The notes under the pieces were generated by a model, which saw only the letters and a program-made list of their open reading frames with translations, did no database searches and was not told the origin of the DNA. 64,000 bases of DNA from a virus. This document shows positions 1 to 30,247 of the stretch, one piece after another; the first letter of the stretch is position 1; each line of letters begins with the position of its first letter. The DNA lies in IMG/VR virus record IMGVR_UViG_3300017770_000003. The stretch is one strand, 5' to 3'. The position numbers and the translations under genes were made by a program.

Positions 1-51
1 TTCAGCCAATAAACTTTGGCTTCTCATTAAATTGTCTAATTGTTCACTCAT
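1..51 (-). CDS. 5' end of a hypothetical protein (MSEQLDNLMRSQSLLAE...), truncated by the window edge
   Basis: ATG at 51-49 overlaps the TAA of the upstream fibre gene (TAATG); 17 open codons to the edge. Confidence 0.7.
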   Translation of the reverse strand, partial: MSEQLDNLMRSQSLLAE

Positions 52-3000
52 TATGCTGTTATTACTATAAAGTCGTTACTTGGGTTAAAATAAATTTGTC
101 CGTCAGAAGCATCTAAACAGTATCCAATAATTCTAACTACATCACCGTTGCCCGCCGGCGCGCCAGAAGTTGCTGCCCCATATACACTACTAACTTGTTG
201 TTCATCTAAATATAGTACATCGCCTACCGCACCAGGATCATGGTCTAGTGTTACCATACCTTTAAGTAAGACACCATTAGTATCAGAGGCAGCACCTAAT
301 GCTACGCCTAATAATCCATCTGATGTTGAGGTAGCATTTGGGTTTGCTATTTCCCAGGTGCCATCCGATTTAAAATGATATATTCTGCCGGTTTGCATGC
401 TAGTAGTTCCACCGAAGAAAACTACATCACCATCATGATCCCCATCCGTAGCCGAGGTTTTGCTTAATTTAATTTTAGGGGCTATAAGACTTCCATTAGT
501 AACTTCTACTCCAGCAGTACTAACTGTTAACTCAGTTGTACTTCCGTTTGCTTGGAGTGCTATTTGGTTGTCAGCGGGTTGATAAATACCTGTATTTATA
601 TCAGTTCCAAATTTTATGGCAGGAGATGATTGGGAACCGTCACTACTAACTGATAAAGTATTACATGAAATAGACCCATCAAATCCTGCATCGCCGTCTT
701 CGTCTATAAAGACCTTTTGAGTACCTCCTACACTTATTTCAAATAATACTTCATTATCAGTAGCAGAAGCCGGGTTTATTTTTAAACTACCTGTGATTTC
801 AGAATCACCAACTAATCTTTCTACATCAGCACTTGCATCATATGCCCAAGAAGCCCCATTAGTAGTGTCACTAATAAATGTTACATCAAAACCAGTATTA
901 GGCCCAGTTCCTACTGTTAATGTACCATCTATATCAGCATTACCATTTACATCTAATGCAGTAAGTGATCCTAACGATGTTATATTGGTTTGAGCTGCTG
1001 TAGTAAGTGTTACATCAGCTATTTGAGCAGAACCCGAAACAACTCCTGAAGGTAAAGTTGCAGAAACATTAGTTAATCCTGAACCATCACCTATAAATTC
1101 AGATGCAGAAACAAACCCACTTGCACTTATATCACTTGATGCAGTTATATTAGCAGTGGTAATAGCTTGCATTGAAATAGCTTCTGATGATCTGATTTGT
1201 GTTACATTTGAAATATTACCAAAAGTTATAGTACCACTATTATTAATAACACTATTAACTCCTCCTAATGATATAAAACCGTCTACATCTAATGTATTAG
1301 ACGTTACCTTACCACTTGAACTAATATTACCTGATGCTGTTATATGTAAAGCACTATGGATACTGTTGCCATTTAAATCTAAATTAGTGGTAGCCGTGTG
1401 GTTACCTAAGTTATCACCTCCGGCAACAGCTGCTGCTAGTGAAGATGATACATTCGCAAAACCAGGGAGTGATAAAGTACCATCTACGTCAACATCATTA
1501 AATGTAACATTTGATGTGGTAGTTAATCCTTGGTTAATTGCTTTAACTGCTGCTAAATTACTTAGTTCAGAATCCATTAAAGCGCCAGCACTAGTTACAT
1601 TAGATGTATTTGCGGTAAGTTTAGCATCGTTGGCAGTAACTCTAGTACTAAAAGAAGCACTTGCGGCTCCATTAGTGGTTACTCTTGTGCTAAACGAGGC
1701 ACTAGCAGCTGTGAATGATCCCGAAATTCCTGCTTTTGTTAAGGCTTTAACTGTTGCAATTTCTGCAAGTTCTGAATCCATTAAAGCACCTGCTGAGGTT
1801 ACATTAGATGTGTTTGCCGTTAGTTTAGCGTCATTTGCTGTTACTCTTGTACTAAATGAAGAACTAGCGGCTGTAAATGAACCTGAAATTCCTGCTGCTG
1901 TTATTCCATCTAATTTAATACCATCAGCTGCTACATCTCTACCATCAACAGTTCCTGTAACCGTTATGTTTCCTGTAACACCTAAAGCTTTACTAGTAGT
2001 AATTTGTTCATTTGCGTCATCAACTGTTAATAAAGTTCCCTGACCTACACCTCCTATATCTCCTGCAAATATTTTAAAACTACTACCTTGTAAATCTCCA
2101 CTACTACTTAAGTATAATCCACTACCACCACCCCCATCAGGGTTAGTAAGTCTTATATGAGTATTTGCACCTATAAAATCACCATGGGTTTTAATATCTT
2201 GACTAGCACTTATACTATTTCCTGTTCCTCCTAAATCTACTTCTAAACCTCCTTGTGGGGAAAAATTAACATAAGTAGTAGTACCACCTGAATTTTGGAT
2301 TCTAAAACTATCAGTAATCTCTGATTTTATATTTAATGATCCTACAACAACATTCTGAGTATCTAAATTGGCTACTGTTTGGGCCGAGCCTGAAACTAAT
2401 GTTTTACCTTCAAGAGTATTAAAACTACTATTTAATGTTGATACATCTACACCATCAACGTTACCAACACTAGTAATAGCATTACCACCCATATTTAAAT
2501 CTTGGGTAGCAGTATGGTTACCTAGGTTATCGCCACCAGCGGATGCTGCGGCAAGTGATGATGATACATTAGCAAATCCTGGAATTGATAAGGTACCATT
2601 TATATCGACACTACCCGTTGTGTTAAAACTACCACTAACCGCAACAAACCCATCACCAACTCTTAAACGTTGGGTATCTTCAACATGGAAATCAATATCA
2701 GTAGCACTAAATTCAATATATTCTTCATCAGTACCATTTCCTATTTTATTATTGCTTATATTGATTATACCATTTGCTGGCCTTAAATTGAATGAACTAT
2801 TAGATACTGTTATAAAATCGGGGGAACCATCAGCATCTGATATTTTAAGTGTGCTTGCATGTATTTTTAAATCTCCAGTTCCCGTATCCTTAATAAAACT
2901 ATCACTACCATCGTGGTAGATTTTTAAATCACCTGCAGCACCAAATGAAGCCGAATCATTGTCTCCAAACCCTATATTTTTTCCGTTTGCATCTAAATCA

Positions 3001-3428
3001 CCCCCTAATTGTGGGGAAGTATCGTCTACTACGGCACTTATCCCACCAGCGGATGCTGCGGCAAGTGATGATGATACATTAGCAAATCCTGGAATTGATA
3101 ATACTCCTCCTATAATTTCTGTACTACCCGTTAATTTTAAGCTGCCTGTAAATAAATGGGTATCATCTATACTATCACCAAAAATAGTAGAACCACTACT
3201 AAATGACTGTGTCATATGGGTGACCGAAGATGAAACTATATAATTTTCTGCGGTTAATGATCCCTTAACTGTTAGGGTTTCTAATACTAAATCTTGTTTT
3301 ACAGCAGATGCACTACCATAAAATAAATTACCATCAGCAATATTAATTGCAAATTCACCTGTTTCTAGTGAAGATGGTGTATTTCCAGCAGTAGCACTGC
3401 TTTTTAATTTTATTGTACTATTTGACAT
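51..3428 (-). CDS. Long tail-fibre-like virion protein (1125 aa) with N-terminal IKLKxS...GEFAINIADG adaptor module and internal repeats
   Basis: Ser/Thr/Gly-rich; N-terminus resembles the Mtd_N/fibre adaptor motif; LSIPGFANVSSSLAAA x3; DNLGNHTAT x2; VVDDTSPQLGGDLD motif typical of phage fibres. Confidence 0.75.
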   Translation of the reverse strand: MSNSTIKLKSSATAGNTPSSLETGEFAINIADGNLFYGSASAVKQDLVLETLTVKGSLTAENYIVSSSVTHMTQSFSSGSTIFGDSIDDTHLFTGSLKLTGSTEIIGGVLSIPGFANVSSSLAAASAGGISAVVDDTSPQLGGDLDANGKNIGFGDNDSASFGAAGDLKIYHDGSDSFIKDTGTGDLKIHASTLKISDADGSPDFITVSNSSFNLRPANGIINISNNKIGNGTDEEYIEFSATDIDFHVEDTQRLRVGDGFVAVSGSFNTTGSVDINGTLSIPGFANVSSSLAAASAGGDNLGNHTATQDLNMGGNAITSVGNVDGVDVSTLNSSFNTLEGKTLVSGSAQTVANLDTQNVVVGSLNIKSEITDSFRIQNSGGTTTYVNFSPQGGLEVDLGGTGNSISASQDIKTHGDFIGANTHIRLTNPDGGGGSGLYLSSSGDLQGSSFKIFAGDIGGVGQGTLLTVDDANEQITTSKALGVTGNITVTGTVDGRDVAADGIKLDGITAAGISGSFTAASSSFSTRVTANDAKLTANTSNVTSAGALMDSELAEIATVKALTKAGISGSFTAASASFSTRVTTNGAASASFSTRVTANDAKLTANTSNVTSAGALMDSELSNLAAVKAINQGLTTTSNVTFNDVDVDGTLSLPGFANVSSSLAAAVAGGDNLGNHTATTNLDLNGNSIHSALHITASGNISSSGKVTSNTLDVDGFISLGGVNSVINNSGTITFGNISNVTQIRSSEAISMQAITTANITASSDISASGFVSASEFIGDGSGLTNVSATLPSGVVSGSAQIADVTLTTAAQTNITSLGSLTALDVNGNADIDGTLTVGTGPNTGFDVTFISDTTNGASWAYDASADVERLVGDSEITGSLKINPASATDNEVLFEISVGGTQKVFIDEDGDAGFDGSISCNTLSVSSDGSQSSPAIKFGTDINTGIYQPADNQIALQANGSTTELTVSTAGVEVTNGSLIAPKIKLSKTSATDGDHDGDVVFFGGTTSMQTGRIYHFKSDGTWEIANPNATSTSDGLLGVALGAASDTNGVLLKGMVTLDHDPGAVGDVLYLDEQQVSSVYGAATSGAPAGNGDVVRIIGYCLDASDGQIYFNPSNDFIVITA
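2533..3101. repeat. Perfect 59-bp direct repeat (2533-2591 and 3043-3101), with a degenerate third copy near 1417-1475
   Basis: ccaccagcggatgctgcggcaagtgatgatgatacattagcaaatcctggaattgataa occurs twice, 510 bp apart. Confidence 0.95.
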
Positions 3429-3448
3429 ATCTTATATATACATATTGA

Positions 3449-3679
3449 TTAAAATGAGCCTCCATTAATGGTTCCTATAAATAAACTTGCGCTAACAGGT
3501 TTATTAAAACTAAATTTATTATTATTAAAGTCAAAACTTAATGATCCACTAGTATTATCAATAAATGAATCAACTTCAAAGTCAGTAGCATCACTAAATT
3601 TACCAAATAGTAAACTATCCTGTGTATATAGTGAGCCTGATGATGCTAAACTACCTAATATGAGTGTATTACTTGGCAT
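3449..3679 (-). CDS. Small fibre-associated protein (76 aa) ending in INGGSF
   Basis: ORF coupled by TAATG to the upstream gene; C-terminal motif shared with other fibre genes. Confidence 0.7.
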   Translation of the reverse strand: MPSNTLILGSLASSGSLYTQDSLLFGKFSDATDFEVDSFIDNTSGSLSFDFNNNKFSFNKPVSASLFIGTINGGSF

Positions 3680-4497
3680 TATATTATTCCTTGTGTAAAC
3701 GCAGTAAATTCATACATAATTTCTACAGGCCCAAAAGCAGGATTTATTTGGGCCGAGACATTACAATATGCAGCTGAAGATGTTAAGTTTAAAATAGTTT
3801 GGCTTGTATTTTTAGCTAAAAGTACTTTAGGCTGATGGTTATATGAATTTCCCGATTGATTATAAGCTATATGAAATTCGCCCGTTTCTACATATCCACC
3901 TTGTGCACCTACAGCATTATAATTCATATGAACTGCTACAAATGAAGTAGCAAAATCGGCTACATCTTGTGTAAAAGCAGATCCTATAGAAGCCGATATT
4001 GTAGCCACACCCACTCCTTTATAAACCCCTAAAGTATTACTTTGGGATAATAGATATTGATCACTGATATAATGTGAAGCTACATCGTCATTTTTATATT
4101 TAATAACACCTCTATTGTTATTTATACTAGACATAGGGTGGTTTATAGTAATAGGAGTAGTGTTACCTTTAGGAACTATAGTTATATTTTGATTAGTCCC
4201 TAAAGTAAGATTACTACTAGTAATTATTAAATTACTATCTGATTCTATGTTACTAGTATGTATAGTGCCACTGGAACTTATATTGCCCGAGGCTGTAATG
4301 TTGCCTACTATCTCTATACTACCAGTTGTTTGGCTATTAGTAGTTATAATATGTTCAATAGAATCAGAACCATTGTTCTTTTCAAAAAATATTCTACCAT
4401 CATGTGTGTTGATAGATAATTCTCCTAACTCTAGGTTAGAAGTTGTAGGGACTTTCCCAACAACTGAACTGCGTTTTAATTTAACTACTTGTGCCAT
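3679..4497 (-). CDS. Tail-fibre-like protein (272 aa) with N-terminal VKLKRSS...GELSINTHDG adaptor module
   Basis: N-terminal motif; ITASGNISSSG segment identical to one in the 1125-aa protein. Confidence 0.7.
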   Translation of the reverse strand: MAQVVKLKRSSVVGKVPTTSNLELGELSINTHDGRIFFEKNNGSDSIEHIITTNSQTTGSIEIVGNITASGNISSSGTIHTSNIESDSNLIITSSNLTLGTNQNITIVPKGNTTPITINHPMSSINNNRGVIKYKNDDVASHYISDQYLLSQSNTLGVYKGVGVATISASIGSAFTQDVADFATSFVAVHMNYNAVGAQGGYVETGEFHIAYNQSGNSYNHQPKVLLAKNTSQTILNLTSSAAYCNVSAQINPAFGPVEIMYEFTAFTQGII

Positions 4498-4545
4498 ATA
4501 TATGGTCTATATTTTAAGGTAGTATATACTACAAGTATACATAGT

Positions 4546-4573
4546 AAGAGCCCCAAGAAACCTTGGAGCTCTT
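4546..4573 (-). terminator. 12-bp stem-loop downstream of the 877-aa gene (terminator or processing hairpin)
   Basis: AAGAGCUCCAAG-GUUU-CUUGGGGCUCUU; U-tract is weak. Confidence 0.55.
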
Positions 4574-4595
4574 TAAAAGAAATATATATGTAGTC

Positions 4596-7229
4596 TTAGT
4601 AGGTACCTCCGTCAATTACAGCGGATACTGCAAACCCATCGGCGGTTTTCTGGAGGAAAGCACCAACAGTTGAACCCGATGCTACTGAAACTATATTATC
4701 TGAGTCATCTAAATGAATAAAACCACTATTTGTAGGGTTAGCAGCATTAAATAAAGCAATTCTTTTTTCTGAATCTTTTTCACCCGCCATCCAGTAGTTA
4801 GAATCGTATTTATATAATAGTGATCCTGTTACACCTGCACTATCTTGATCAAATACATAGATACCGGCATTTGCTGCGGCTGTAGCACTATTTAATATTA
4901 TAATATTATCACCGATCTCGACTTCAGTTGAGTTAACTGTTGTAGTAGTACCATTTACTGTTAAATCACCTCCAACAGTTAAATTTTGGCTAATAGAAGC
5001 AGTTGCTGCTGTTAATAAAGTACCATTAAAGGTTAAATTAGCAGATCCTTCTACTTGTCCAGTAGTTGCAGTAAATACTGCTACGTGATTTTCCGTATAA
5101 TTAGTAAAGGTGGCTGCCGATCCTGTAAATGTATTTAAGGCAGTAACACTAGTGTTTATATTACTAATATCAGAATCTAAGGAACCTGTTTTAGTTTCTA
5201 TACTAGATAATCTGCTATTTTGGGTTGATTGTTCAGTATCTAAAGAACCAGTTTTAGTATTAAGGGCGGTTACACTAGTATTAATTGTGCTAATATCACT
5301 GTCAAGTGAACCTGTCTTAGTGTTAAGGGCAGTTATACTAGTATTTATAGAGCCAGTTTCGGTATTAAGAGCAGTTATAATAGTGTTAATTGTGCTAATA
5401 TCGCTATCTAAAGAGCCCGTCTTAGTGTTTAAAGCAGTAACACTAGTGTTTATATTACTAATACTAGAATCTAAGGAACCTGTTTTGGTGTTAAGGGCGG
5501 CTATACTAGCATTAATAGAACCTGTTTCAGTATTAAGAGCGGTTATAATAGTATTTATGGTACTAATATCTGAGTCTAAAGAACCTGTTTTGGTATTAAG
5601 GGCAGTTACACTAGTGTTTATAGTACTAATATCTGAGTCTAAAGAGCCTGTCTTAGTGTTTAAAGCAGTAATTTTAGTATTAATAGAGCCTGTTTCTGTG
5701 TTTAAAGCAGTAATGCTAGTATTAATAGTACTAATATTAGAATCCAAAGAACCAGTCTTGGCGTTAAGAGAAGTTATGCTGGTGTTAATTGTACTAATAT
5801 CTGAGTCTAAAGAACCTGTTTTGGTATTAAGAGCTGCAATACTTGTATTGGCAGAACCACTGAATGTATTTAAAGCGGCAATACTAGGTAATTGGGCTGA
5901 ACCACTAATAATACCATCTCCAGTTTCTCTTAAGAATTTAGCTTCAGATCCTAATTCGCCTCCTTTCCAATATTTTTCATCATCATCCCATAAGAAACTA
6001 CCTGTATGGGCAGTAGGGTTACCATCCGATGCGCTTACATGAACATTAATACCGGCATTACCTGATCCACCTCCTAAGGCAGCATTTAGTACTATAATTC
6101 TATCTCCAATTTCAACTTCAGTTGAATTAATAGTTGTTGTAGTACCACTAACAGTTAAATCACCTGTAACTGTTAAATTTTTACCAACTGTTAGATTTTG
6201 GGTAATAGAAGCGGTGGCCGCTGTTAATGTATTACCATTAAACGTTAAATTGGATGAACCATCTAATTCACTTGCCCCATTAAAAATAGCAACTTGATTA
6301 TTTGCTCCACTACCTGAAAGTACATTATTTGTAAAAGTAGCAGCATTTGCAGTTCCCCCTAATACACCCCCTAAGGTAACTGTACTAGCATCAACTGTTA
6401 CTCCTGTTAAGTCACTACCATTACCTACAAAACTACCACTAAAAGTAGAACCACTAATAACGGATACATTAGTAAAATCTACTACATCTGTGCTAGTAGC
6501 TCCTGATACAATTAATGAACCTGTAATTACGGCACTACCACTAAAAGGGAATCCTGATCCTCCTAATGTACCATCATCTATTTGAGTTCTTAATGTTCTA
6601 CCAACATATTGATAAGCAGTAGCAAATACAAAATCATTTCCATCATGTGGAGGAGTACCTACCCAGGTAAGAACACCTGTTTTATAATCAAATACAAATT
6701 GGTCATCTGTAGCGGCAGTAACGTTGTTTTCATCATTACCATAAGAAATTGCTACCTTATAACCAGGGGTTAAAGATTCAGCATTTCTAGAAGCGTGTCC
6801 AGGTATTATATACTTGGGGGATACAAAATTAGTTTGTTGGTCCGCTTCTATAATTTGGTCAGAAGTTACATAATCATCATGGGCATCAGGATCATCAGTA
6901 GTAAAATAATAAACTTCCCTTTGCCCGTCAGCAGCTCCCTTGAGTTTTTTTCTATGGTGGAATTTTACAATTGCTAGATCATCAGCACTTCCCTCTGTGT
7001 AAGTAGTAGGATCTACTAAACTAGCTGAAATTATTAACCCATCTTGACTAGAACCACTATAAGGTAGTTGGCTACTTCCCGTAGGGATTAACCCGTCATC
7101 TGTAAATATTTCATTAGCCCCTAAATCAAATACATCTGTAAATGCTTCTTGAGTTAATGTAAGATCATTAGTAGTAAATCTTCTACCTTGTAATAATCTT
7201 TCTGATCTATTGGGTGAGTTATATGCCAT
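4596..7229 (-). CDS. Tail-fibre/virion structural protein (877 aa) with a central coiled-coil repeat, ending in VIDGGTY
   Basis: Heptad-multiple repeats; two copies of an EIGDxIIxLN...GSxLW/Y domain. Confidence 0.75.
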   Translation of the reverse strand: MAYNSPNRSERLLQGRRFTTNDLTLTQEAFTDVFDLGANEIFTDDGLIPTGSSQLPYSGSSQDGLIISASLVDPTTYTEGSADDLAIVKFHHRKKLKGAADGQREVYYFTTDDPDAHDDYVTSDQIIEADQQTNFVSPKYIIPGHASRNAESLTPGYKVAISYGNDENNVTAATDDQFVFDYKTGVLTWVGTPPHDGNDFVFATAYQYVGRTLRTQIDDGTLGGSGFPFSGSAVITGSLIVSGATSTDVVDFTNVSVISGSTFSGSFVGNGSDLTGVTVDASTVTLGGVLGGTANAATFTNNVLSGSGANNQVAIFNGASELDGSSNLTFNGNTLTAATASITQNLTVGKNLTVTGDLTVSGTTTTINSTEVEIGDRIIVLNAALGGGSGNAGINVHVSASDGNPTAHTGSFLWDDDEKYWKGGELGSEAKFLRETGDGIISGSAQLPSIAALNTFSGSANTSIAALNTKTGSLDSDISTINTSITSLNAKTGSLDSNISTINTSITALNTETGSINTKITALNTKTGSLDSDISTINTSVTALNTKTGSLDSDISTINTIITALNTETGSINASIAALNTKTGSLDSSISNINTSVTALNTKTGSLDSDISTINTIITALNTETGSINTSITALNTKTGSLDSDISTINTSVTALNTKTGSLDTEQSTQNSRLSSIETKTGSLDSDISNINTSVTALNTFTGSAATFTNYTENHVAVFTATTGQVEGSANLTFNGTLLTAATASISQNLTVGGDLTVNGTTTTVNSTEVEIGDNIIILNSATAAANAGIYVFDQDSAGVTGSLLYKYDSNYWMAGEKDSEKRIALFNAANPTNSGFIHLDDSDNIVSVASGSTVGAFLQKTADGFAVSAVIDGGTY
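5125..5885 (-). repeat. In-frame tandem repeat array: 21-aa units (ALNTKTGSLDSDISTINTSxT) and 14-aa units (ALNTETGSINTxIT)
   Basis: Visible in the translation and as degenerate 63-bp and 42-bp DNA units. Confidence 0.9.
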
Positions 7230-7246
7230 ATCTTATAGTTTCTGTA

Positions 7247-9823
7247 TTACGATGTGGATACTGTAAATCCAGTTAATGTAGAAGCAGGGGCTCCTTTATA
7301 TCTAATTAATATCCAAATTTTAGGGTTTGAAGCGTTAATAGTTTGTCCTATAGAGTTATTTAATCCTAAAGTTAATGTACCACTTGAATTTGTAAATGAT
7401 GTAAAATCACCTATAACATCTATATTATCGCTAAATGGGTTATTATTTCCTGTTGATTGTGCATTTAAACTACCTCCATAAGTACCATTACCTTTAACAG
7501 CATCAAATATATCAGAGTTTTGTGCTTGGAAAATAACACCGATTGAAATTTTGTTATTAGTGGTAGTATCCCAAGTAACAAAATCACTGCTGCTATCTGG
7601 GTCAAAATTTAATGTTAGAGTACTTTTATTACTACTTGCTCCAGTGTCAACTTCTCTTAAGAACCACTTATAATGGGCCTGGTTAAATCCATCTGTAGGG
7701 TACCAATAACCAGCACCTGCATTACTTACAGCAGTACCGTTATGTTCTGGATTAACAAGGAAACCAGGTTTAACTTGTAAGTCACCACCATCTCCTAATG
7801 TTAATCTTGAACTTGAATTAAATGCTGTTGTTAAAGTAGTTGAATTACTAATTGTTCTTCTATAAACTTCACCTTTAAAGGTTTCGCTAGTATTTGTAGC
7901 CCCACCAGCACCACCATCATCTGAAATGAAGTATGCTAGAGAACCACTAGCTACAGGTTGGCCAAAGGCTCCCGCTGTGTGATAATTTATATTAGTATCA
8001 TCATTTGTAGTACTGTCAGTGAAATTACGAGATGTAATTCTGTATGTAAATGTACTATCACTATAGCTTGATCCTTCTAGGATATTAGTTTCATTAGCAT
8101 CACTAGCACCAAAGCTATAGGTTTCTGCTATTCTACCAGTATCATCTATACCCGGGTTATCATTAATTGCTCTAGCGGTATTACCATCATATACCCTATT
8201 AGCTCCAGCTACATCGCCATCTGACTGAATAGTAATTATTTGTGTTGAGTCGCCCGCAAAAGTTAAAGTAGTACTAGTAATTGAACCATCTAATAATGTA
8301 GTGTTGTTTCTATATAGGGGTTTAAATAAATTACTAGCTGTAACTTCTGCACTATAAGTAGCTCCATTCAAGTATGGGGCACCTGATAAGCTTCTAGAAG
8401 TAAAACTTGAAGAAGTAAATTTTGTAACATTAGAAACTGCAGTATCTGTTATATCACTAATTTGTAGTGGAGATTGAAATATAGATGTATTTACATTGGT
8501 TTGGGATCCAGGGCTTTGTAAGCTACCAAAAATAACTTCAGCTTCTGTTTGGGTACTACCTGTGGCTACACCTGCTAATATACCTTGGTATTTGTAGTAT
8601 CCACTTGAGGAAATGTCTGTAAAATCTTCACTAGAAGCTTTATATCTTAAAGATGTTTGTAAAGGTATATTAGCACCATTAGCCTTTTTAAACTGAGGTG
8701 GAATAACTGTTGGGTTACCCGTCGCTATTGTTTCTAAATCAATAGTATTACTAGGCCCCCCCTGTACTACTACACCAGCGGCCCCCGGGGTTAAGGTAAA
8801 TTCAAATCTAGATTGAGTATTAAATGTATTACTAGCGGGGCTTGGATCATTCTCACTTTGTGTATCACTAAAACTTTGAGTTACTTTAGCGAATACAGTA
8901 AAGTTATCACTATTAGACCCCGCATCAAATTCAGTATCGGCAACGCCACCCCCTAATAAATCTATTCTAACCCCATAATTACCTGTTGTAACTCCTGTGC
9001 GTCTATTTGAAGCAGCTACCTCACTAAACATACTTGTACCTGCGCCTCCATTAAATCCCTTTAGATTTAAGTAAGCAGCATTTTCTTCAGTAAACCCTAC
9101 AGGAAGGTATACACTATCAAAATCGCTACTATCAGTAGGCAGTGATTCAGCTTCGCTATTATACCCCGTGTATTTAGTAGCTAAAGCAGTAGGAGAAGCA
9201 ACTAAAGCACTATTAGAAGAACTAATAAGTCCTGCGAATGTTCTTAAAATTTCTGCTACATCAGTATTAGCATCATAATTATTAAATATAGAACCTGCTA
9301 AATTAGATTGCCAAGCTAAATTATTTGGGTGACCAACATTATGGTTACTAAAGTAAGCAGATTGGCTAACAATTAAAGCATAATTATTATTTGTAGAAGA
9401 AGCTCCTCTAATTTCCGTAGGAGCAGTATCAGGTGACCCCAATAATGTACTACCTGTAATTATTTGTGAATCTTTGAATAGGTTAGTACTACCTGTAAGA
9501 GCAAATCGTGCTTCATTTTGTAAAGTACCTAGGGTAATTTCAGTATTACCACTACTATCTAATCTATATAATTTGTTATCATCAGTATCATAAAATAAAG
9601 TACCATTTAGTTGTTTATTATTTGAATCTAATGTAGGAACTGTTGTTCCTAATTGTACGGGGTTAACTAAGCTAGCCGAAGTTTCACCTATACCAACAAC
9701 TAAAAATGGTCCTGTTAAATTACCACTAGAACCAGTGACAATTAAAACCTCACCTATATTTGCGGTTACTGTAGATGATAGAGAGCCTACGCCACCTCTT
9801 TTTAACTGAATTGTTTGAGCCAT
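7247..9823 (-). CDS. Tail/fibre structural protein (858 aa) with N-terminal IQLKRGG...GE module
   Basis: Ser/Thr/Gly/Asn-rich, beta-rich composition; located in the fibre cluster; late motif upstream. Confidence 0.65.
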   Translation of the reverse strand: MAQTIQLKRGGVGSLSSTVTANIGEVLIVTGSSGNLTGPFLVVGIGETSASLVNPVQLGTTVPTLDSNNKQLNGTLFYDTDDNKLYRLDSSGNTEITLGTLQNEARFALTGSTNLFKDSQIITGSTLLGSPDTAPTEIRGASSTNNNYALIVSQSAYFSNHNVGHPNNLAWQSNLAGSIFNNYDANTDVAEILRTFAGLISSSNSALVASPTALATKYTGYNSEAESLPTDSSDFDSVYLPVGFTEENAAYLNLKGFNGGAGTSMFSEVAASNRRTGVTTGNYGVRIDLLGGGVADTEFDAGSNSDNFTVFAKVTQSFSDTQSENDPSPASNTFNTQSRFEFTLTPGAAGVVVQGGPSNTIDLETIATGNPTVIPPQFKKANGANIPLQTSLRYKASSEDFTDISSSGYYKYQGILAGVATGSTQTEAEVIFGSLQSPGSQTNVNTSIFQSPLQISDITDTAVSNVTKFTSSSFTSRSLSGAPYLNGATYSAEVTASNLFKPLYRNNTTLLDGSITSTTLTFAGDSTQIITIQSDGDVAGANRVYDGNTARAINDNPGIDDTGRIAETYSFGASDANETNILEGSSYSDSTFTYRITSRNFTDSTTNDDTNINYHTAGAFGQPVASGSLAYFISDDGGAGGATNTSETFKGEVYRRTISNSTTLTTAFNSSSRLTLGDGGDLQVKPGFLVNPEHNGTAVSNAGAGYWYPTDGFNQAHYKWFLREVDTGASSNKSTLTLNFDPDSSSDFVTWDTTTNNKISIGVIFQAQNSDIFDAVKGNGTYGGSLNAQSTGNNNPFSDNIDVIGDFTSFTNSSGTLTLGLNNSIGQTINASNPKIWILIRYKGAPASTLTGFTVSTS

Positions 9824-9854
9824 GTTGTCTATTTGATTATTCTAATATACATAT

Positions 9855-10103
9855 TTAAAATCCCCCAAGGTCAAGGTTTCCCCTTAGTATTATGTTATCA
9901 GTAGAAAGGGTTCCTGATACATTTAATGACCCAGTAATATCTGTTGATCCCGTAATAGAAAATTTTCCACTTTCTGTAATGTTAAGAGATATACTTCCAC
10001 TATCATTTACAATAATTTCAGAAATAAATGCCCCCGCAGACCCACTAAATATGATGGATCCGCTTGCGGGTTCTATAATTATATTTCTATTATATAAAGG
10101 CAA
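9855..10103 (-). CDS. Small fibre-associated protein (82 aa, TTG start) ending in LDLGGF
   Basis: Fills the gap between genes; ATATTTATA motif 14 nt upstream. Confidence 0.6.
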   Translation of the reverse strand: MPLYNRNIIIEPASGSIIFSGSAGAFISEIIVNDSGSISLNITESGKFSITGSTDITGSLNVSGTLSTDNIILRGNLDLGGF

Positions 10104-10126
10104 TATAGTATTTGGTTATAAATATT

Positions 10127-10795
10127 TTATTGAGTTGTTTTAAGTTTAGGTACATCTGCTCTAGCACCTTTAACTTCCCAAAAGAAATCATATTCAATAA
10201 TATCATCTGAGTCACAACCAAAATATAACCAATTACTTATAAATTTTTCAAAATAAATAGGTTGAAATTTCCCTACGGAAGATATTTGTACAGTTATTGT
10301 TGAGGGCACAATTAATTTGCTCCATTCGGGCGGTAATTTTACTTTTAATACATTCGCTCTCCCCCTACAGTATACCCCATGCTCAGGACCCTCTAATGCG
10401 CCATACACAAGTCTTTTACCAATTTTAGTGGGGTGTTCTATATCAAAAGACTTAACACGTGCGCGTAATGTTCCACTAGAAGTAATATCATCTGTAATAA
10501 GTTGAGAACCTGTAATAGTAAGAGATCCAATTACTTTTAGACTACCTGAAATCTCGGCACTACCTGTAAAAGGAAATGTATCCCCACTAGATCCAGCAGT
10601 TTCTAAAGTTGTTACTCTATTTGATATAGACGAAGATAACTCATTAGATGAACCAGATATCCCAGCGGCCGTAAAGGATGAACCAAAATTTACTGCAGAA
10701 CCCGTTCCATCAAAGAAACTAGTACCATCTGTTTGGACTATTCTCTGATAAGTGTCTTGTATATTGTTCCCAGTAAAATTAAAGGGTCCAGCCAT
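10127..10795 (-). CDS. Fibre-type protein (222 aa) with C-terminal KSFDIEHP...LEGPExGVYxRG chaperone-like domain
   Basis: C-terminal motif is common at the ends of phage fibre proteins. Confidence 0.6.
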   Translation of the reverse strand: MAGPFNFTGNNIQDTYQRIVQTDGTSFFDGTGSAVNFGSSFTAAGISGSSNELSSSISNRVTTLETAGSSGDTFPFTGSAEISGSLKVIGSLTITGSQLITDDITSSGTLRARVKSFDIEHPTKIGKRLVYGALEGPEHGVYCRGRANVLKVKLPPEWSKLIVPSTITVQISSVGKFQPIYFEKFISNWLYFGCDSDDIIEYDFFWEVKGARADVPKLKTTQ

Positions 10796-10802
10796 TTTTT
10801 AA

Positions 10803-11381
10803 TCACTTTAATTTAGATAGACCAGTAATTACTCCTTCAATAATTTTATCTTTTTGGGATTCTTTTATTGTATTTTCAGATAAGTAGGTAGCAACTATAT
10901 GGTTTAATTTATTCTTTCTAAAGTTTACATTGTCAAGTTTAATATCTTCCTTAACAAGCAATTTCAGTATATTATAAACGTGTTTTTTATCATTAGTAGT
11001 AACTTGTTTTGTTTCTTTAATGTTAGCTACTTTAATCTTAGGTTTATTATCTTCTGTAATAACAGTACCTGATTGGGATTTAACTTCGACTTGTATTTTT
11101 CTTGAGGCATCCACTTCAAATGTAGATTCCCAAGGGGTAAAATAAGTATCTTCAGCTATTACTTCTAATTTAATATTACCAGAACTGTTTTCTTGTAATA
11201 GTCCTTTTAATTTTTTAATGGGAATTATGCATTTTCCTCTAGAGTTAATTTCTCCTTCAAATAGTAATGATAGGTCTTTAGTTGCTACAATTAATCTAGC
11301 AAGAGAATTAGAAAGTGAAGCACCTTCTAATTGTATATCACACTCAAATATTTCTTGTTTATCAGTATAAAGTTTATACAT
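10803..11381 (-). CDS. Hypothetical phage protein (192 aa)
   Basis: ORF with typical codon usage, tightly packed in the operon. Confidence 0.8.
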   Translation of the reverse strand: MYKLYTDKQEIFECDIQLEGASLSNSLARLIVATKDLSLLFEGEINSRGKCIIPIKKLKGLLQENSSGNIKLEVIAEDTYFTPWESTFEVDASRKIQVEVKSQSGTVITEDNKPKIKVANIKETKQVTTNDKKHVYNILKLLVKEDIKLDNVNFRKNKLNHIVATYLSENTIKESQKDKIIEGVITGLSKLK

Positions 11382-11384
11382 ATC

Positions 11385-11711
11385 TTATAAGTTTACGTTT
11401 ACGTTAATACCTAGTACCTCTTTTGCAACTAGTTCAATATCTTTAACAGTAATTTTTCTTTCTTGTACTTCTTTAGTTTCTTCGTACAACTCACCATTAA
11501 CTTTGCAAAGTAGTTTAATAAATTTCTTTTTCTTTTCAGGTTCTTTATCAAAATAAGTTTTAGGATCTTCTAAAGCTCCCCCAGCTATAATTTCTTGTAA
11601 TAAGAAAACATCTTCCCACTTATATGGTTCCCCTAAGGGTGATGTATTATTATCATAAGTAAAATCTGCGTTTTCCCATTTTATAGGTGTTTTTCTAAAT
11701 TGCTGTGTCAT
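11385..11711 (-). CDS. Hypothetical phage protein (108 aa)
   Basis: TAATG-coupled ORF. Confidence 0.8.
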   Translation of the reverse strand: MTQQFRKTPIKWENADFTYDNNTSPLGEPYKWEDVFLLQEIIAGGALEDPKTYFDKEPEKKKKFIKLLCKVNGELYEETKEVQERKITVKDIELVAKEVLGINVNVNL

Positions 11712-12571
11712 TAGAAAGATCCACCATTTATATTACCAATTATATCGCCACTAGCACTTATACTACCTTCTACTGTTAATTTTTCGGGTGCTGTAGTTGT
11801 TCCTATAGCTACATTATTGCCTGTATTTAGAAAATCTGTAGATCCGGCTGCACCATTAAGTCGAACATGTGTATTACCATCATCATTTAGCAAAAGCATA
11901 CCTCTATCAAGTTCTGGGAGATCACTTACACCAGAAAATCCTAGATAGGCTAATGTATTATCATTAGTAGAAGATAATAAGGATAAAGAATTAGCACCTG
12001 CAGTACTTTTTATTGATCCTGAAAAAACAAAACCTACATCATTACTAGATGCTCCTAAACCATAACCTATAGTTAGGGCTTTAATAGGGGTAGTTACATT
12101 ACTACTATCATTAACTTCAAAAATTAAACCACCATATGCTCCATTAATATTACTACCTATGACTTCAGAATATATAGCTGAGGTAGACCCGCTTGCTATA
12201 AAACCAGTACCTAAGAATGAAGCAGATTCTATAGCAAATATAATTCTACCTGTTTCTTCCCCCACCTGGATAACTCCATCTTCATTAGTTCTTAAAATTA
12301 AATTTGCTGGAGAAGATCCAGTTGTAGATCTAATATCAAGGTTAGAAAGGGGGTTTGTAGTACCCATTCCTACTAAAGGATCAGGACTAGATCCTGTAAT
12401 GTATATAGCAACAGAACTGGTAAGGGTTCCTAAAGATTGTGAGTTAATTAAAATTTGGATAGCATCATTAATTTCAGATGCACCAATAGATCCAAGTTCT
12501 ATTGCTGAATTATAATTTATATCTTCATCCGATCCTGTTAGGAAAGAGCCACTATAAAATACTAATCCCAT
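11711..12571 (-). CDS. Fibre-like structural protein (286 aa) ending in INGGSF
   Basis: GxGTTxP fibre motifs; shared C-terminal motif. Confidence 0.65.
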   Translation of the reverse strand: MGLVFYSGSFLTGSDEDINYNSAIELGSIGASEINDAIQILINSQSLGTLTSSVAIYITGSSPDPLVGMGTTNPLSNLDIRSTTGSSPANLILRTNEDGVIQVGEETGRIIFAIESASFLGTGFIASGSTSAIYSEVIGSNINGAYGGLIFEVNDSSNVTTPIKALTIGYGLGASSNDVGFVFSGSIKSTAGANSLSLLSSTNDNTLAYLGFSGVSDLPELDRGMLLLNDDGNTHVRLNGAAGSTDFLNTGNNVAIGTTTAPEKLTVEGSISASGDIIGNINGGSF

Positions 12572-14010
12572 TAGGTTTGTGGTTTTAAGGTTTTAATTTC
12601 TTGTTGAAGATCTTCAATCATTTTTTGTTGGTCTTGAATAGATTTAATTAGATAGGGAACTAAGCTAGTATAATCAACAGTCCAATGTTCATCTTTTTTG
12701 GGAGCATAAGTAGATTTAGGTAAAATTTCATGTAGTTCTTGGGCTATAACCCCTGTGTCTGTTTCACCAGAAGATTTCCATGTAAAATCTTTAATTTTAA
12801 TTTTCATTAAATCATCAACAGAATATTTAGTAGGGACTATATCTTTTTTTAGATTTTTATCTGAACTATATGTTATAGCTATACTATTATTATTACCAGC
12901 AGATCTAATAGCCCCACAAAATTGATTATTACCCCTAAATCCTATAAAATTTCTACTTGTGGAATTTGTCCCGTCAATAGTAATATTTAAACCATCAGCA
13001 CTTGTATTGTTACCCGAATTATCATTTCGAATTCGTGCTACATAGCTTGTGTTGTTACCTAATACATCTAAAGCATAGCTTGGGGCAGCATTATTAATTC
13101 CAATTCTTCCATTATTAGTAGTTGTATTAGGGTATTGAACATGTAGTACTGCGTATGAAGTAGTATCATCATTATCATCTTTCCTACTTACACCAAATAC
13201 TAATCTACCCCCTTTCTCAGTAGTGGAGTGATTTTGAAGAGCATAAGCTGCTATATATGCTGATGCTTCTGTTATACCGCTAGGAACATTACCATCACGC
13301 CCATCAAATCCTATACCTCCTAAAAAATTACCAGAAGAAATGCTTGTATCATTCCTGATGATCATAATCCCCCCATCACCGTCAGCTCCTGTGTGACTAA
13401 CATTAAAAGTATTTGGAGTAAGAACATGTGAATCAGTACCTACACCTACGTGACCGGTACTGCCCTCAAGATACATGTTGGGAGTAGAATTGCCATTAGA
13501 GTAAACTGCAAAATCTATATCACTACCATCAGGGTTAACTGATACCTTTCGTGCAGTGCTTACTTCATCTAATGCTAAATGAGTTACACTACCTACTTTA
13601 AATAAATGGCCTAAATTAGTGCTATCATAATCTTTAGTTATATATTCTATATTTTTATAACTGCCTGCGGATTCTCCACCAATAATAAGTTTATCAGCAC
13701 CACCAATACCAGATCTACTAAGAGAAGCTGTTTCTGCTAAATCTAAAACATTTGTTGAGTCAGATGCAACACCAAAGCCAGGGTTTGGAACTTCATCTAA
13801 TGCTATATTAAATGTAGTTGTACCTGATATACCAGTACCTGCTGAAACACTGCCCCCGATATCACCCCTAGTAGTTATTTGGAAATGCCCAGAACCATCT
13901 ATACTTAATATATTATTAGTGCTACCAGCTTCAGCAGGTAAATTACTTGAAGTAATATCGTATAAAGAGGCTTTAGAGCCTGAAAGTAAGACTTTTTTCC
14001 AGTTCGGCAT
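12571..14010 (-). CDS. Tail fibre/spike (479 aa) with C-terminal Peptidase S74 intramolecular chaperone
   Basis: SDKNLKKDI...TGVIAQEL...VDYTSLVPYLIKSIQDQQ followed by a coiled-coil end; N-terminus MPNWKKVLLSGS. Confidence 0.85.
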   Translation of the reverse strand: MPNWKKVLLSGSKASLYDITSSNLPAEAGSTNNILSIDGSGHFQITTRGDIGGSVSAGTGISGTTTFNIALDEVPNPGFGVASDSTNVLDLAETASLSRSGIGGADKLIIGGESAGSYKNIEYITKDYDSTNLGHLFKVGSVTHLALDEVSTARKVSVNPDGSDIDFAVYSNGNSTPNMYLEGSTGHVGVGTDSHVLTPNTFNVSHTGADGDGGIMIIRNDTSISSGNFLGGIGFDGRDGNVPSGITEASAYIAAYALQNHSTTEKGGRLVFGVSRKDDNDDTTSYAVLHVQYPNTTTNNGRIGINNAAPSYALDVLGNNTSYVARIRNDNSGNNTSADGLNITIDGTNSTSRNFIGFRGNNQFCGAIRSAGNNNSIAITYSSDKNLKKDIVPTKYSVDDLMKIKIKDFTWKSSGETDTGVIAQELHEILPKSTYAPKKDEHWTVDYTSLVPYLIKSIQDQQKMIEDLQQEIKTLKPQT

Positions 14011-14020
14011 GTGTTTTGTC

Positions 14021-14069
14021 TATTACGGTTGGTTACGACTTAATGCCGCCCACTTCCCGGAGGCCAATA
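14021..14069 (-). ncRNA. Candidate structured 5' leader RNA (three-way junction with a cUCCGg tetraloop)
   Basis: GC-rich island in an AT-rich spacer; manual fold gives P1 UAUUAUUGG/CCAA..UAAUA, P2 CC-UCCG-GG, P3 GCGGC-AUUAA-GUCGU. Confidence 0.4.
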
Positions 14070-14090
14070 ATATCCTTAACAATAAATATA

Positions 14091-14267
14091 TTAGGATTGT
14101 TTTCTCTTAGCGGCTACTTCAGGGGGAATAGAAGCTTTTTCAAGCTCTTTTTCTAAAGTTGTAATAATATTAGCTACTATGACAGCATCTTTACCTTGAA
14201 TAGTAGCGTTTTTAGAAGCGGCCACTAAAAAGGCCATTTGATTAGGTTCTAATTTTATATTTGCCAT
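14091..14267 (-). CDS. Small helical protein (58 aa, MANIKLEPNQ...AAKRKQS), not in the ORF track; possible fibre chaperone
   Basis: ATG at 14267, TAA at 14091, A-rich leader, fills the intergenic gap. Confidence 0.75.
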   Translation of the reverse strand: MANIKLEPNQMAFLVAASKNATIQGKDAVIVANIITTLEKELEKASIPPEVAAKRKQS

Positions 14268-14311
14268 AACTTTTTATTTTTAGTGTAATAAGGAAAAATT
14301 AAATTCCCAAA

Positions 14312-15922: not shown

Positions 15923-15937
15923 TATAGATATATTATT

Positions 15938-17260: not shown

Positions 17261-17266
17261 GTGTTA

Positions 17267-17446
17267 TTAATCTTTTTGGACAAATTCCGTAATCCTATAT
17301 ACTAAATCGTATATAGGTTGTATATTTTTGATTTTAATTTCACCTTCACCTATTAAAGAAAGTATCATTTTTGCTTCCTCTTTAGTAAATTGTAATTTAG
17401 GTGTAGTCAATTCTTCTCTTTTACTAGAACCAAATCTTATTGCCAT
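17267..17446 (-). CDS. Small helical protein (59 aa, MAIRFGSSKR...EFVQKD), not in the ORF track
   Basis: ATG at 17446, TAA at 17267, late motif upstream; loosely resembles 14091..14267. Confidence 0.75.
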   Translation of the reverse strand: MAIRFGSSKREELTTPKLQFTKEEAKMILSLIGEGEIKIKNIQPIYDLVYRITEFVQKD

Positions 17447-17479: not shown

Positions 17480-17953
17480 TTATTCAATTCCAGCATAAAA
17501 ATTAGAAGAAGAATATACTATAATACCGGATTCAGCACTAGGAAGTGATCTATCAGTAAGTTTTATAAAACTAGAACTTATAATTCCGGAAGATGTAATA
17601 TCTCCTTCTACAAAAATATTTAATGAAGATGTTAATCTTGAATTAGAGATATCAATATACCAATCATTATCCTGAGATGTTAAAGTACTTAAATCAACAG
17701 CATCTGTGGTGCCATCCCCCTGATTAAATGTAATTATATTGTTATTAAAAGAAGAACTTATATAAAAGCTACCTGTATTTACATTTGTAGGGGTAGATTC
17801 AGATGATGATGCTCCTTTTATTTCAAAAACTACATTCTGTTTATCTTTAGAAAATACTTTTTGATCATTTACGTTAATGACTAATTCACCTAATGCAAAA
17901 TCACTTGCCTTAGGTATATTACCTACGCCAAATATTATTTTGTTCTTTGCCAT
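17480..17953 (-). CDS. Short fibre/adaptor protein (157 aa) with P..DF..GELVINVND N-terminal module
   Basis: Same N-terminal motif class as 51..3428 and 3679..4497. Confidence 0.65.
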   Translation of the reverse strand: MAKNKIIFGVGNIPKASDFALGELVINVNDQKVFSKDKQNVVFEIKGASSSESTPTNVNTGSFYISSSFNNNIITFNQGDGTTDAVDLSTLTSQDNDWYIDISNSRLTSSLNIFVEGDITSSGIISSSFIKLTDRSLPSAESGIIVYSSSNFYAGIE

Positions 17954-21587: not shown

Positions 21588-21624
21588 AATAAATGGTTTT
21601 AAAACGTTTTTCAATTATACATAT

Positions 21625-30230: not shown

Positions 30231-30247
30231 CGTATATACATACTAAC

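What the first reader, a model, noticed from the sequence alone, without database searches (positions are those of the whole stretch)
51..12571. Possible plug-and-socket code: genes ending in xxGG[S/T/x][F/Y] are followed by genes starting with an IxLK..GE adaptor domain
Seen: four proteins end in this motif (877 aa VIDGGTY; 76 aa TINGGSF; 82 aa LDLGGF; 286 aa NINGGSF). For three of them the next transcribed gene begins with the adaptor module: 877 aa then MAQVVKLKRSS..GELSIN; 76 aa then MSNSTIKLKSS..GEFAIN; 82 aa then MAQTIQLKRGG..GEVLI. The fourth plug (286 aa) and a fourth socket (17480..17953) are not adjacent. Inference: the C-terminal peptide completes the partner's N-terminal beta-domain, chaining fibre segments or branches. 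The 76- and 82-aa proteins would be dedicated linkers.
Basis: partly seen in the sequence, partly recalled or inferred. Interest (0 to 1): 0.7.

Follow-up and report, generated by a model that had tools for sequence, protein, structure and literature searches.

The report
T4-type plug-and-socket tail-fibre joints
A marine T4-like phage builds its tail fibres from separately encoded pieces that most likely clip end to end through the joint phage T4 uses once (gp36 to gp37), used here three or four times, so fibre wiring can largely be read from gene order.

Summary
Only four of 196 ORFs in the window end in the motif, against 0.02 expected. Three of them are followed directly by a gene that starts with the N-terminal module.

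The module is the N-terminal domain of T4 gp37. An HMM built only from marine sequences hits T4 gp37 residues 7-46 at E=3e-9. The motif matches the C-terminus of T4-type gp36, which ends in DFGYY, DFGSY or DFGTF. In T4, gp36 is known to bind the N-terminal region of gp37.

The coupling holds well beyond this window:
- 28 of 31 non-redundant motif-ending ORFs in viral contigs are followed by a module gene.
- 15 of 15 loci in a second set have the motif upstream of the module.
- The same pairing occurs in myo-, podo- and siphophages.

A 3+3 complex prediction puts the last eight residues of the 877-aa protein against residues 1-10 of the 272-aa protein (ipSAE 0.87, best control 0.00).

Caveats:
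- A specificity 'code' is only partly supported. The DLG/DCG plug type tracks one socket subclass; D versus N in the motif does not discriminate.
- Sockets also follow fibres that end in a self-cleaving S74 chaperone.
- One plug and one socket in the window have no adjacent partner.

This scan has reached the same reading before on other phage DNA. It is a new variant of a known kind.

The parts
4596..7229 (-). 877-aa fibre segment with a central coiled coil. Its C-terminus VIDGGTY is a plug (last 8 codons at 4599-4622).
   Evidence: Translation. Coiled-coil hits. Its last 8 residues form the predicted interface.
3679..4497 (-). 272-aa protein. Residues 1-50 (4348-4497) are a gp37-type N-terminal socket.
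   Evidence: The N-terminus hits PHROG tail fibre and long tail fibre distal subunit families. Socket HMM hit. Residues 1-10, 15, 17-18, 21-22 and 28 contact the plug. A monomer model gives pLDDT above 90 for residues 10-50, with four strands.
3449..3679 (-). 76-aa small plug protein ending TINGGSF. Its start overlaps the stop of the 272-aa gene (ATGA).
   Evidence: Conserved as a 76-aa protein in three clusters. Its C-terminal 50 residues resemble the C-terminus of a 170-aa socket-plus-plug protein in L002.
51..3428 (-). 1125-aa distal fibre. Residues 1-50 (3279-3428) are a socket of the '...FYGS' subclass.
   Evidence: In 15 of 15 related loci the upstream gene ends in a plug.
9855..10103 (-). 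82-aa small plug protein ending LDLGGF (DLG type).
   Evidence: Homologous 82-96-aa genes precede the same socket subclass in L001, L003, L060, L061 and L070.
7247..9823 (-). 858-aa fibre. Its N-terminal socket is of the 'KRGG...GE...TGS' subclass (9674-9823).
   Evidence: DLG/DCG plugs pair with this subclass in 9 of 9 cases.
11711..12571 (-). 286-aa protein ending NINGGSF: a plug with no adjacent socket. It follows the S74 fibre gene with an ATGA overlap.
   Evidence: A relative has the same arrangement.
17480..17953 (-). 157-aa protein with a divergent socket and no adjacent plug. It follows a 293-aa gene in the putative baseplate block.
   Evidence: Socket HMM hit. PHROG long tail fibre distal subunit N-terminus. 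A relative has the same arrangement.
12571..14010 (-). 479-aa fibre with a C-terminal self-cleaving chaperone domain (Peptidase_S74, residues 383-432). It is context for the second kind of upstream terminus seen in relatives.
   Evidence: Pfam hit at 43.2 bits against a cutoff of 22. PHROG tail fibre hits. The pre-cleavage sequence reads ...ITYS|SD.

Best explanation
The two motifs are the two halves of a head-to-tail joint between trimeric tail-fibre proteins. It is the same joint that links gp36 to gp37 in the T4 long tail fibre.

How it most likely works:
- The last 7-8 residues of the upstream-encoded trimer (hydrophobic-[D/N]-[G/L/F]-G-x-[F/Y]-COOH) form a beta-strand.
- This strand lies parallel to the first beta-strand of the about 45-residue N-terminal domain of the downstream-encoded trimer ('I-x-L-K-R', then ...G-E-hydrophobic).
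- Three plug strands and three socket strands therefore interdigitate.

In this phage the joint is used at least three times: 82 aa to 858 aa, 877 aa to 272 aa, and 76 aa to 1125 aa. Long fibres are thus assembled from separately encoded, exchangeable segments. The joint partners are kept next to each other in the genome.

Shown here: the motifs, their homology to T4 (the socket as a whole domain, the plug only as a terminal motif), and the coupling across genomes.
Inferred: physical binding (in silico only), the order of segments in the virion, and what anchors the 76- and 82-aa proteins.
For: (1) The motifs are real and far above chance.

(2) The socket is the T4 gp37 N-terminal domain:
- PHROG long tail fibre distal subunit hits fall on the N-termini.
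- tblastn finds the module at the start of gp37 in the T4-like phages JSE, EcS1 and KP27, and in cyanomyophages.
- An HMM built from marine contigs only hits T4 gp37 residues 7-46 at E=3e-9, and KP27 and JSE gp37 at about 1e-10. It does not hit gp34, gp35 or gp36.

(3) The plug is the gp36 C-terminus. T4 gp36 ends VQDFGYY, KP27 IIDFGSY and JSE VIDFGTF, each directly upstream of gp37. In T4, trimeric gp36 binds the N-terminal region of gp37 (PMC3004832, read).

(4) Coupling:
- 25 of 31 non-redundant plug-ending ORFs in 72 viral loci are followed by a socket ORF. The count is 28 of 31 once sockets cut by locus ends are included. Sockets make up only 4.5% of ORFs.
- In a second set, found through the socket of the 1125-aa protein, 15 of 15 loci have a plug upstream, on proteins of 50 to 811 aa.
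- The same chains occur in Vibrio podophage 172P1, cyanomyophage P-HM2, siphophage S-CBS2 and Methylophilales phage Melnitz.

(5) The socket is strictly N-terminal: 113 of 113 ORFs and all of the best 150 among 17,047 cluster representatives.

(6) Double-ended proteins (socket plus plug) sit between a plug gene and a socket gene in L003, L060, L061, L065, L069, L070, 172P1, P-HM2 and Melnitz.

(7) Complex prediction, 3 copies of the last 130 residues of the 877-aa protein with 3 copies of the first 100 residues of the 272-aa protein:
- ipSAE 0.87, best of 3 controls 0.00.
- That mark was reached by 58 of 80 solved complexes and 2 of 110 mismatched pairs. The counts hold only roughly here, because my own alignments and 6 chains were used.
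- The runs agree in at least 93% of contacts, and the partner pLDDT is at least 93.
- The interface is plug residues 123-130 plus 106-109 against socket residues 1-10, 15, 17-18, 21-22 and 28.
- The register 125 with 5/6, 127 with 7/8 and 129 with 9/10 indicates a parallel strand. Each socket strand touches two plug chains.

(8) No solved structure holds the socket by sequence, so a pass from memory is unlikely.
Against: - Binding is only predicted.
- Only one of the three pairs was folded.
- The plug-bearing proteins show no detectable homology to T4 gp36 beyond the terminal motif (hhalign probability 0.2%).
- About half of the sockets in related loci follow genes that end not in the plug but in a Peptidase_S74 chaperone, so the plug is not the only upstream terminus.
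- The 286-aa plug and the 157-aa socket have no adjacent partner, and this arrangement is conserved in relatives.
- Ralstonia phage RsoM2USA and P-SSM2 have sockets with no upstream plug.
- Many counted loci are related to each other, so the statistics overstate the number of independent events.
Confidence: 0.8

Rival explanations
1. The adjacency is conserved synteny only. Fibre genes cluster together, and the two short conserved ends are independent fold-capping or trimerisation elements that do not touch each other.
For: - Sockets also follow S74-ended fibres and a few unrelated termini.
- One plug and one socket in the window are not adjacent to a partner.
- Many loci are homologous to each other.
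Against: - The pairing persists while both partners change completely in size and body. Plug proteins range from 50 to 1313 aa and socket proteins from 67 to more than 2400 aa, in myo-, podo- and siphophages.
- The DLG/DCG plug type covaries with one socket subclass in 9 of 9 cases.
- The confident predicted interface involves exactly the two motifs, and the controls score 0.00.
- In T4 the two proteins that carry these ends are known to bind each other (PMC3004832).
Confidence: 0.1
2. Each plug gene and socket gene are read as a single polypeptide, by stop-codon readthrough or frameshifting, or they are recently split genes. On this reading the junction is intramolecular, not a docking site.
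For: One database protein (P0004) has a second, internal copy of the module, preceded by a plug-like '..TIDG..' stretch. A covalent version of the junction therefore exists.
Against: - All four plug genes end in TAA.
- The spacers are 20, 31 and 98 nt, none a multiple of three, so readthrough cannot fuse the frames.
- The spacers vary from -1 to 218 nt between loci.
- The module is N-terminal in 113 of 113 and 150 of 150 proteins.
- T4 gp36 and gp37 are separate virion proteins (PMC3004832).
Confidence: 0.04
3. The conserved junction is a DNA-level recombination cassette. Shared sequence at gene borders would promote module swapping, and protein docking would not be the selected function.
For: Fibre genes are mosaic. 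The junction travels as a unit between otherwise unrelated bodies.
Against: - The plug codons differ synonymously between the four copies in one genome.
- The spacers differ in length and sequence.
- Conservation is seen at the amino-acid level down to 25-40% identity.
- A recombination role could exist alongside docking.
Confidence: 0.05

Closest known systems
Phage T4 long tail fibre, distal half: the gp36-gp37 joint (genes 36 and 37)
   Same: - The socket is homologous to gp37 residues 1-46.
- gp36 of T4, KP27 and JSE ends in the same type of C-terminal motif, [IVQ]-D-F-G-x-[FY].
- The plug gene lies directly upstream of the socket gene.
- Trimeric gp36 binds the N-terminal region of gp37 (PMC3004832).
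   Different: - T4 uses the joint once. This phage uses it three, perhaps four, times.
- The plug carriers are not gp36 homologues. They range from 76-82-aa mini-proteins to an 877-aa coiled-coil fibre.
- Position -3 of the motif is G or L here and F in T-even phages.
- No gp35-like knee protein was identified.
T2/S16-type distal fibre: gp37 is processed at its C-terminus and then capped by the product of the next gene, gp38. This rests on my own knowledge of Drexler, Riede and Henning 1986 and Dunne et al. 2018, which were not read here.
   Same: A fibre whose C-terminal chaperone part is removed is followed in the genome by the protein that sits on its new end. This matches the 'S74 fibre, then socket gene' arrangement in about half of the related loci.
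   Different: The downstream protein there is the gp38 adhesin, not a protein with a gp37-type N-terminal module. Docking of a socket on an S74-matured end is untested.
Three-polypeptide side fibres of the marine podophages ICP2 and SIO1 (Hardies et al. 2016, PMC4819975)
   Same: [quoted passage not shown] Vibrio podophage 172P1 shows exactly the plug-and-socket chain.
   Different: The passages I read do not define the terminal motifs or their pairing rule.
N-terminal adaptor domains of branched tailspike systems (CBA120 and G7C type). This rests on my own knowledge.
   Same: Conserved N-terminal modules attach interchangeable receptor-binding proteins to a partner protein.
   Different: Those are larger, unrelated adaptor domains that make side-by-side branches. 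They do not make an end-to-end joint between a C-terminal strand and an N-terminal domain.

Membership tests
T4 gp37 N-terminal (gp36-binding) domain | Sequence homology to the first ~46 residues of T4 gp37 | tested here: met
   An HMM built from marine loci and the window only hits T4 gp37 residues 7-46 at E=3e-9, and KP27 and JSE gp37 at about 1e-10 (Z=1000). The N-termini hit PHROG 1699 and 35830, long tail fibre distal subunit. Alignment A2.
T4 gp37 N-terminal (gp36-binding) domain | Located at the extreme N-terminus of a fibre protein | tested here: met
   113 of 113 ORFs. All of the best 150 among 17,047 representatives start at residue 1-14.
T4 gp37 N-terminal (gp36-binding) domain | Encoded directly downstream of the gene for its binding partner | tested here: met
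   True for three of the four sockets in the window. 28 of 31 and 15 of 15 in viral contigs.
T4 gp37 N-terminal (gp36-binding) domain | Physically binds the trimeric upstream protein | not testable with these tools
   In-silico support only: ipSAE 0.87 against a best control of 0.00.
T4 gp36 (distal hinge connector) | Overall sequence homology to gp36 | tested here: not met
   hhalign of the last 130 residues of the plug proteins (A3) against T4 gp36 gives probability 0.2%. The 76-, 82-, 286- and 877-aa proteins have no Pfam or PHROG gp36 hit.
T4 gp36 (distal hinge connector) | C-terminus of the form hydrophobic-D/N-x-G-x-F/Y-COOH directly upstream of gene 37 | tested here: met
   T4 VQDFGYY, KP27 IIDFGSY and JSE VIDFGTF, compared with the window's VIDGGTY, TINGGSF, LDLGGF and NINGGSF.
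T4 gp36 (distal hinge connector) | N-terminus binds gp35/gp34 (the knee) | not tested
   No gp35 or gp34 homologue was sought or found in the window. What the N-termini of the 76- and 82-aa proteins bind is unknown.
Peptidase_S74 intramolecular-chaperone fibres (479-aa protein) | Pfam PF13884 domain above the gathering score, near the C-terminus, with the S-D-x-[RK]-x-K site | tested here: met
   43.2 bits against a cutoff of 22, residues 383-432. The site reads ...ITYS|SDKNLK.
Mtd_N / BPP-1 Mtd-type N-terminal domain (considered from memory) | Pfam or structural match to Mtd | tested here: not met
   No Pfam hit at E<=0.1 for any socket protein. In Foldseek, 1yu1 ranks only 49th with E=4.

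The most novel reading that the evidence does not exclude
Fibre wiring may be fully readable from sequence. On this reading, a gp37-type socket always docks on the C-terminal end of the fibre encoded just upstream, whether that end is genetically encoded (the plug) or is unmasked by autoproteolysis of an S74 chaperone.

In related loci, 36 of 37 non-redundant S74 fibres with the pre-cleavage sequence ...[IV][IV]A[YF]xS|SD are followed by a socket gene. The 37th is cut by a locus end. None of the 4 S74 fibres with other pre-cleavage sequences is followed by one.

In addition, position -3 of the plug (G, L/C or F) may define orthogonal joint types that stop the several fibres of one virion from being mis-assembled.
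Probability: 0.3. Interest if true: 0.7.

Novelty: new variant of a known kind. Interest (0 to 1): 0.55.

Why it matters
Multi-protein tail fibres decide host range, yet in uncultured phages it is rarely clear which fibre genes form one fibre and in what order.

A short, sequence-readable joint would help in three ways:
- It would let annotators wire fibre segments together from gene order. The joint is the plug at the C-terminus and the gp37-type module at the N-terminus, and it is present in about 17,000 protein clusters.
- It explains the many tiny 'hypothetical' genes between fibre genes as connectors.
- It marks natural break points for exchanging receptor-binding segments between phages in laboratory host-range studies.

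It would also give an atomic-level hypothesis for the T4 gp36-gp37 junction. I found no solved structure for that junction by sequence search.

Tried and rejected
- The search for related loci with the four-socket alignment A1 failed because the alignment had no conserved stretch. A single socket was used as the query instead.
- A PDB sequence search with the socket profile gave only spurious hits to designed 'Cake' propellers.
- Foldseek of a monomer socket model against the PDB gave nothing at E<=0.001. The weak top rows were the cyanophage A-1(L) tail fibre 8kec (E=0.6), the phage hyaluronidase 6x3m, and Mtd 1yu1 at rank 49. These are not evidence. The A-1(L) paper describes a different anchoring.
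- hhalign of the plug-region profile against T4 gp36 found no homology.
- I first split the plugs into DGG and [N/T/S]GG classes that paired with different socket subclasses. The second locus set shows DGG, NGG and EGG plugs all upstream of the '...FYGS' sockets. I therefore dropped that distinction. Only the DLG/DCG class, and the T-even DFG class, still track a socket subclass.
- The 76-aa protein has only three close relatives of similar length. The pair 877/272, which has deeper alignments, was therefore the one folded.
- A literature search for the motif strings found no phage paper.
- TATGTATA, seen in the three plug-socket spacers, is not enriched in the window overall: 8 matches against 9.3 expected.
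It was redone from locus references.
Full report
**Observation**

The region 51-20882 is one minus-strand block of structural genes from a low-GC, T4-like marine myophage. The capsid gene has a distant DNA match to Flavobacterium phage immuto. No whole genome is held for this window.

- Four proteins end in the motif: 877 aa VIDGGTY, 76 aa TINGGSF, 82 aa LDLGGF and 286 aa NINGGSF.
- Four proteins begin with the 'I-x-L-K ... G-E' module: 272, 1125, 858 and 157 aa.
- Three plug genes are followed directly by a socket gene, with spacers of 98, 20 and 31 nt.

No other ORF of at least 40 aa on either strand ends in the motif. The motif's internal frequency predicts 0.02 C-terminal occurrences in the window, and four are seen (P about 7e-9). 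Aligned from the C-terminus, LDLGGF fits a common pattern: hydrophobic, D/N, G/L/F/C, G, x, F/Y, COOH. The plug codons differ synonymously between copies. The spacers are not multiples of three, so readthrough cannot fuse the reading frames.

**What the two motifs are**

Pfam has no model for the N-terminal module. PHROGs matches it to the N-termini of 'long tail fiber protein distal subunit' families. tblastn finds it at the start of gp37 in T4-like enterobacterial phages (JSE, EcS1, KP27) and in many cyanomyophages.

An HMM built only from the window and marine viral contigs hits T4 gp37 residues 7-46 at E=3e-9, and KP27 and JSE gp37 at about 1e-10. It does not hit gp34, gp35 or gp36.

I read the T-even loci directly. 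T4 gp36 ends VQDFGYY, KP27 gp36 ends IIDFGSY and the JSE gp36-like protein ends VIDFGTF. Each lies immediately upstream of gp37. In T4, trimeric gp36 binds the N-terminal region of gp37 as the first step of distal half-fibre assembly (PMC3004832).

The plug-bearing proteins here are not gp36 homologues beyond the terminal motif (hhalign probability 0.2%).

**Coupling in other genomes**

Set 1 came from a scan of viral contigs with the 272-aa socket, which gave 72 loci.
- The socket HMM hits 113 ORFs in these loci, always at the N-terminus.
- Of 31 non-redundant ORFs ending in the plug, 25 are followed within 350 nt by a socket ORF. Three more are followed by a socket that is cut by the locus end. 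That makes 28 of 31, although sockets are only 4.5% of ORFs.

Set 2 came from a scan with the 1125-aa socket. All 15 loci have a plug on the upstream gene, and those genes range from 50 to 811 aa.

Cultured phages show the same chains.
- Vibrio podophage 172P1: two plug proteins of 146 and 173 aa, then a 159-aa socket-plus-plug protein, then a 598-aa socket protein. These are the only plugs and sockets in its whole genome.
- Cyanomyophage P-HM2: 73 aa, then 561 aa (socket plus plug), then a giant socket protein.
- Siphophage S-CBS2: 462, then 374, then 372 aa.
- Methylophilales phage Melnitz: 90, then 648, then 517 aa.

Exceptions are Ralstonia phage RsoM2USA and P-SSM2. In P-SSM2 an HNH endonuclease gene lies upstream of the socket.

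The double-ended proteins argue for serial chaining. L002 and two database proteins combine the N-terminus of the 272-aa protein with a C-terminus like that of the 76-aa protein. This hints that the window's 272- and 76-aa products act together between the 877- and 1125-aa segments.

The module is very common. 17,047 cluster representatives match at E<=1e-3, and the best 150 are all N-terminal.

**Predicted interface**

I folded three copies of the last 130 residues of the 877-aa protein (15-row alignment A3) with three copies of the first 100 residues of the 272-aa protein (30-row alignment A4). Results:
- ipSAE was 0.87, and the best of 3 controls was 0.00.
- That mark was reached by 58 of 80 solved complexes and 2 of 110 mismatched pairs. 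These counts hold only roughly here, because my own alignments and six chains were used.
- The runs agree in at least 93% of their contacts, and the partner pLDDT is at least 93.
- The interface is plug residues 123-130 (the last eight) plus 106-109, against socket residues 1-10, 15, 17-18, 21-22 and 28.
- The lowest-error pairs run 125 with 5/6, 127 with 7/8 and 129 with 9/10. This is a parallel strand addition.
- Each socket strand also touches a second plug chain, so plug and socket strands alternate around the trimer axis.

No solved structure contains the socket by sequence, so a pass from memory is unlikely. This is model confidence, not a measurement. Only one of the three pairs was folded.

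**Limits of the 'code'**

Plug type and socket subclass covary for one class. DLG or DCG plugs precede the 'KRG...GE...TGS' sockets in 9 of 9 non-redundant cases. The T-even DFG plugs precede the 'IQF[KL]R' sockets in 3 of 3 cases.

The D-versus-N difference between the window's 877- and 76-aa plugs is not discriminating. DGG, NGG and EGG plugs all precede the '...FYGS' sockets. Shared ancestry of gene pairs also inflates these associations.

Sockets are not preceded only by plugs. Among 80 non-redundant sockets, the upstream gene:
- ends in a plug in 25 cases, plus 4 variant plugs;
- ends in a Peptidase_S74 chaperone in 36 cases, plus about 5 more that are truncated;
- is something else in about 5 cases.

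All the S74 fibres followed by sockets share the pre-cleavage sequence [IV][IV]A[YF]xS|SD. The four S74 fibres with other pre-cleavage sequences are not followed by sockets, and the same holds for KP27 and JSE gp37. This suggests, but does not show, that chaperone release exposes a plug-like end.

The window's own S74 fibre (479 aa) is followed by the 286-aa orphan plug protein. That arrangement, and the pairing of the 293-aa gene with the 157-aa socket gene, are conserved in relatives.

**Prior knowledge and verdict**

The T4 gp36-gp37 interaction is textbook knowledge. Hardies et al. noted T4-gp36-like, three-polypeptide fibres in marine podophages (PMC4819975). I found no paper that states the terminal motifs or their pairing rule.

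This scan has reached the same reading several times on other phage DNA. My tests were run independently of those notes.

- Observation: confirmed.
- Mechanism: a multiplied, modular version of a known joint.
- Specificity code and the S74-unmasking idea: still open.

Noticed in passing
L005, L009, L012, L016 and about 30 other related loci; window 12571-14010 for comparison: In related loci, S74 chaperone fibres followed by a socket gene all have the pre-cleavage sequence [IV][IV]A[YF]xS|SD (36 of 37 non-redundant cases; the 37th is cut by a locus end). S74 fibres with other pre-cleavage sequences (4 cases, plus KP27 and JSE gp37) are not followed by sockets. The matured C-terminus may act as a second kind of plug.
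   Followed up: partly
window 12571-17446: Three fibre paralogues (479, 536 and 440 aa) share a different N-terminus, of the 'W-K-K-V-L-L-S-G-S' type. Two conserved genes of about 58 aa lie just upstream of two of them. This may be a second anchoring module.
   Followed up: no
window 3437-3444, 4536-4543, 9846-9853, 11375-11382, 21616-21623, 30235-30242 (minus strand): TATGTATA lies just upstream of the start codons of all three socket genes and of three other genes. It may be part of the late promoter. The word is not enriched in the window overall (8 matches against 9.3 expected).
   Followed up: partly
window 4498-4595: The 98-nt spacer between the 877- and 272-aa genes holds a GC-rich hairpin followed by T residues. 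It looks like a terminator, so the plug and socket genes may be transcribed separately.
   Followed up: no
L056 2101-2500, L067 4031-5200, window 11711-12571: Several genes that follow a plug or an S74 fibre, but lack the gp37-type socket, begin with M-G-[LVI]-x-F. Examples are the 113-aa and 384-aa proteins in L056 and L067, and the window's 286-aa protein. This may be another N-terminal docking type.
   Followed up: no
P0004 (database protein, 223 aa): It carries a second, internal copy of the socket module, directly preceded by a plug-like '..K-T-I-D-G..' stretch. This looks like a covalently fused version of the joint.
   Followed up: partly
L079 (Prochlorococcus phage P-HM2) 3501-7138: The giant protein annotated 'gp7 baseplate wedge subunit' starts with a gp37-type socket and follows a plug-ending 561-aa protein. 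It is probably a fibre segment, not a gp7 homologue.
   Followed up: no
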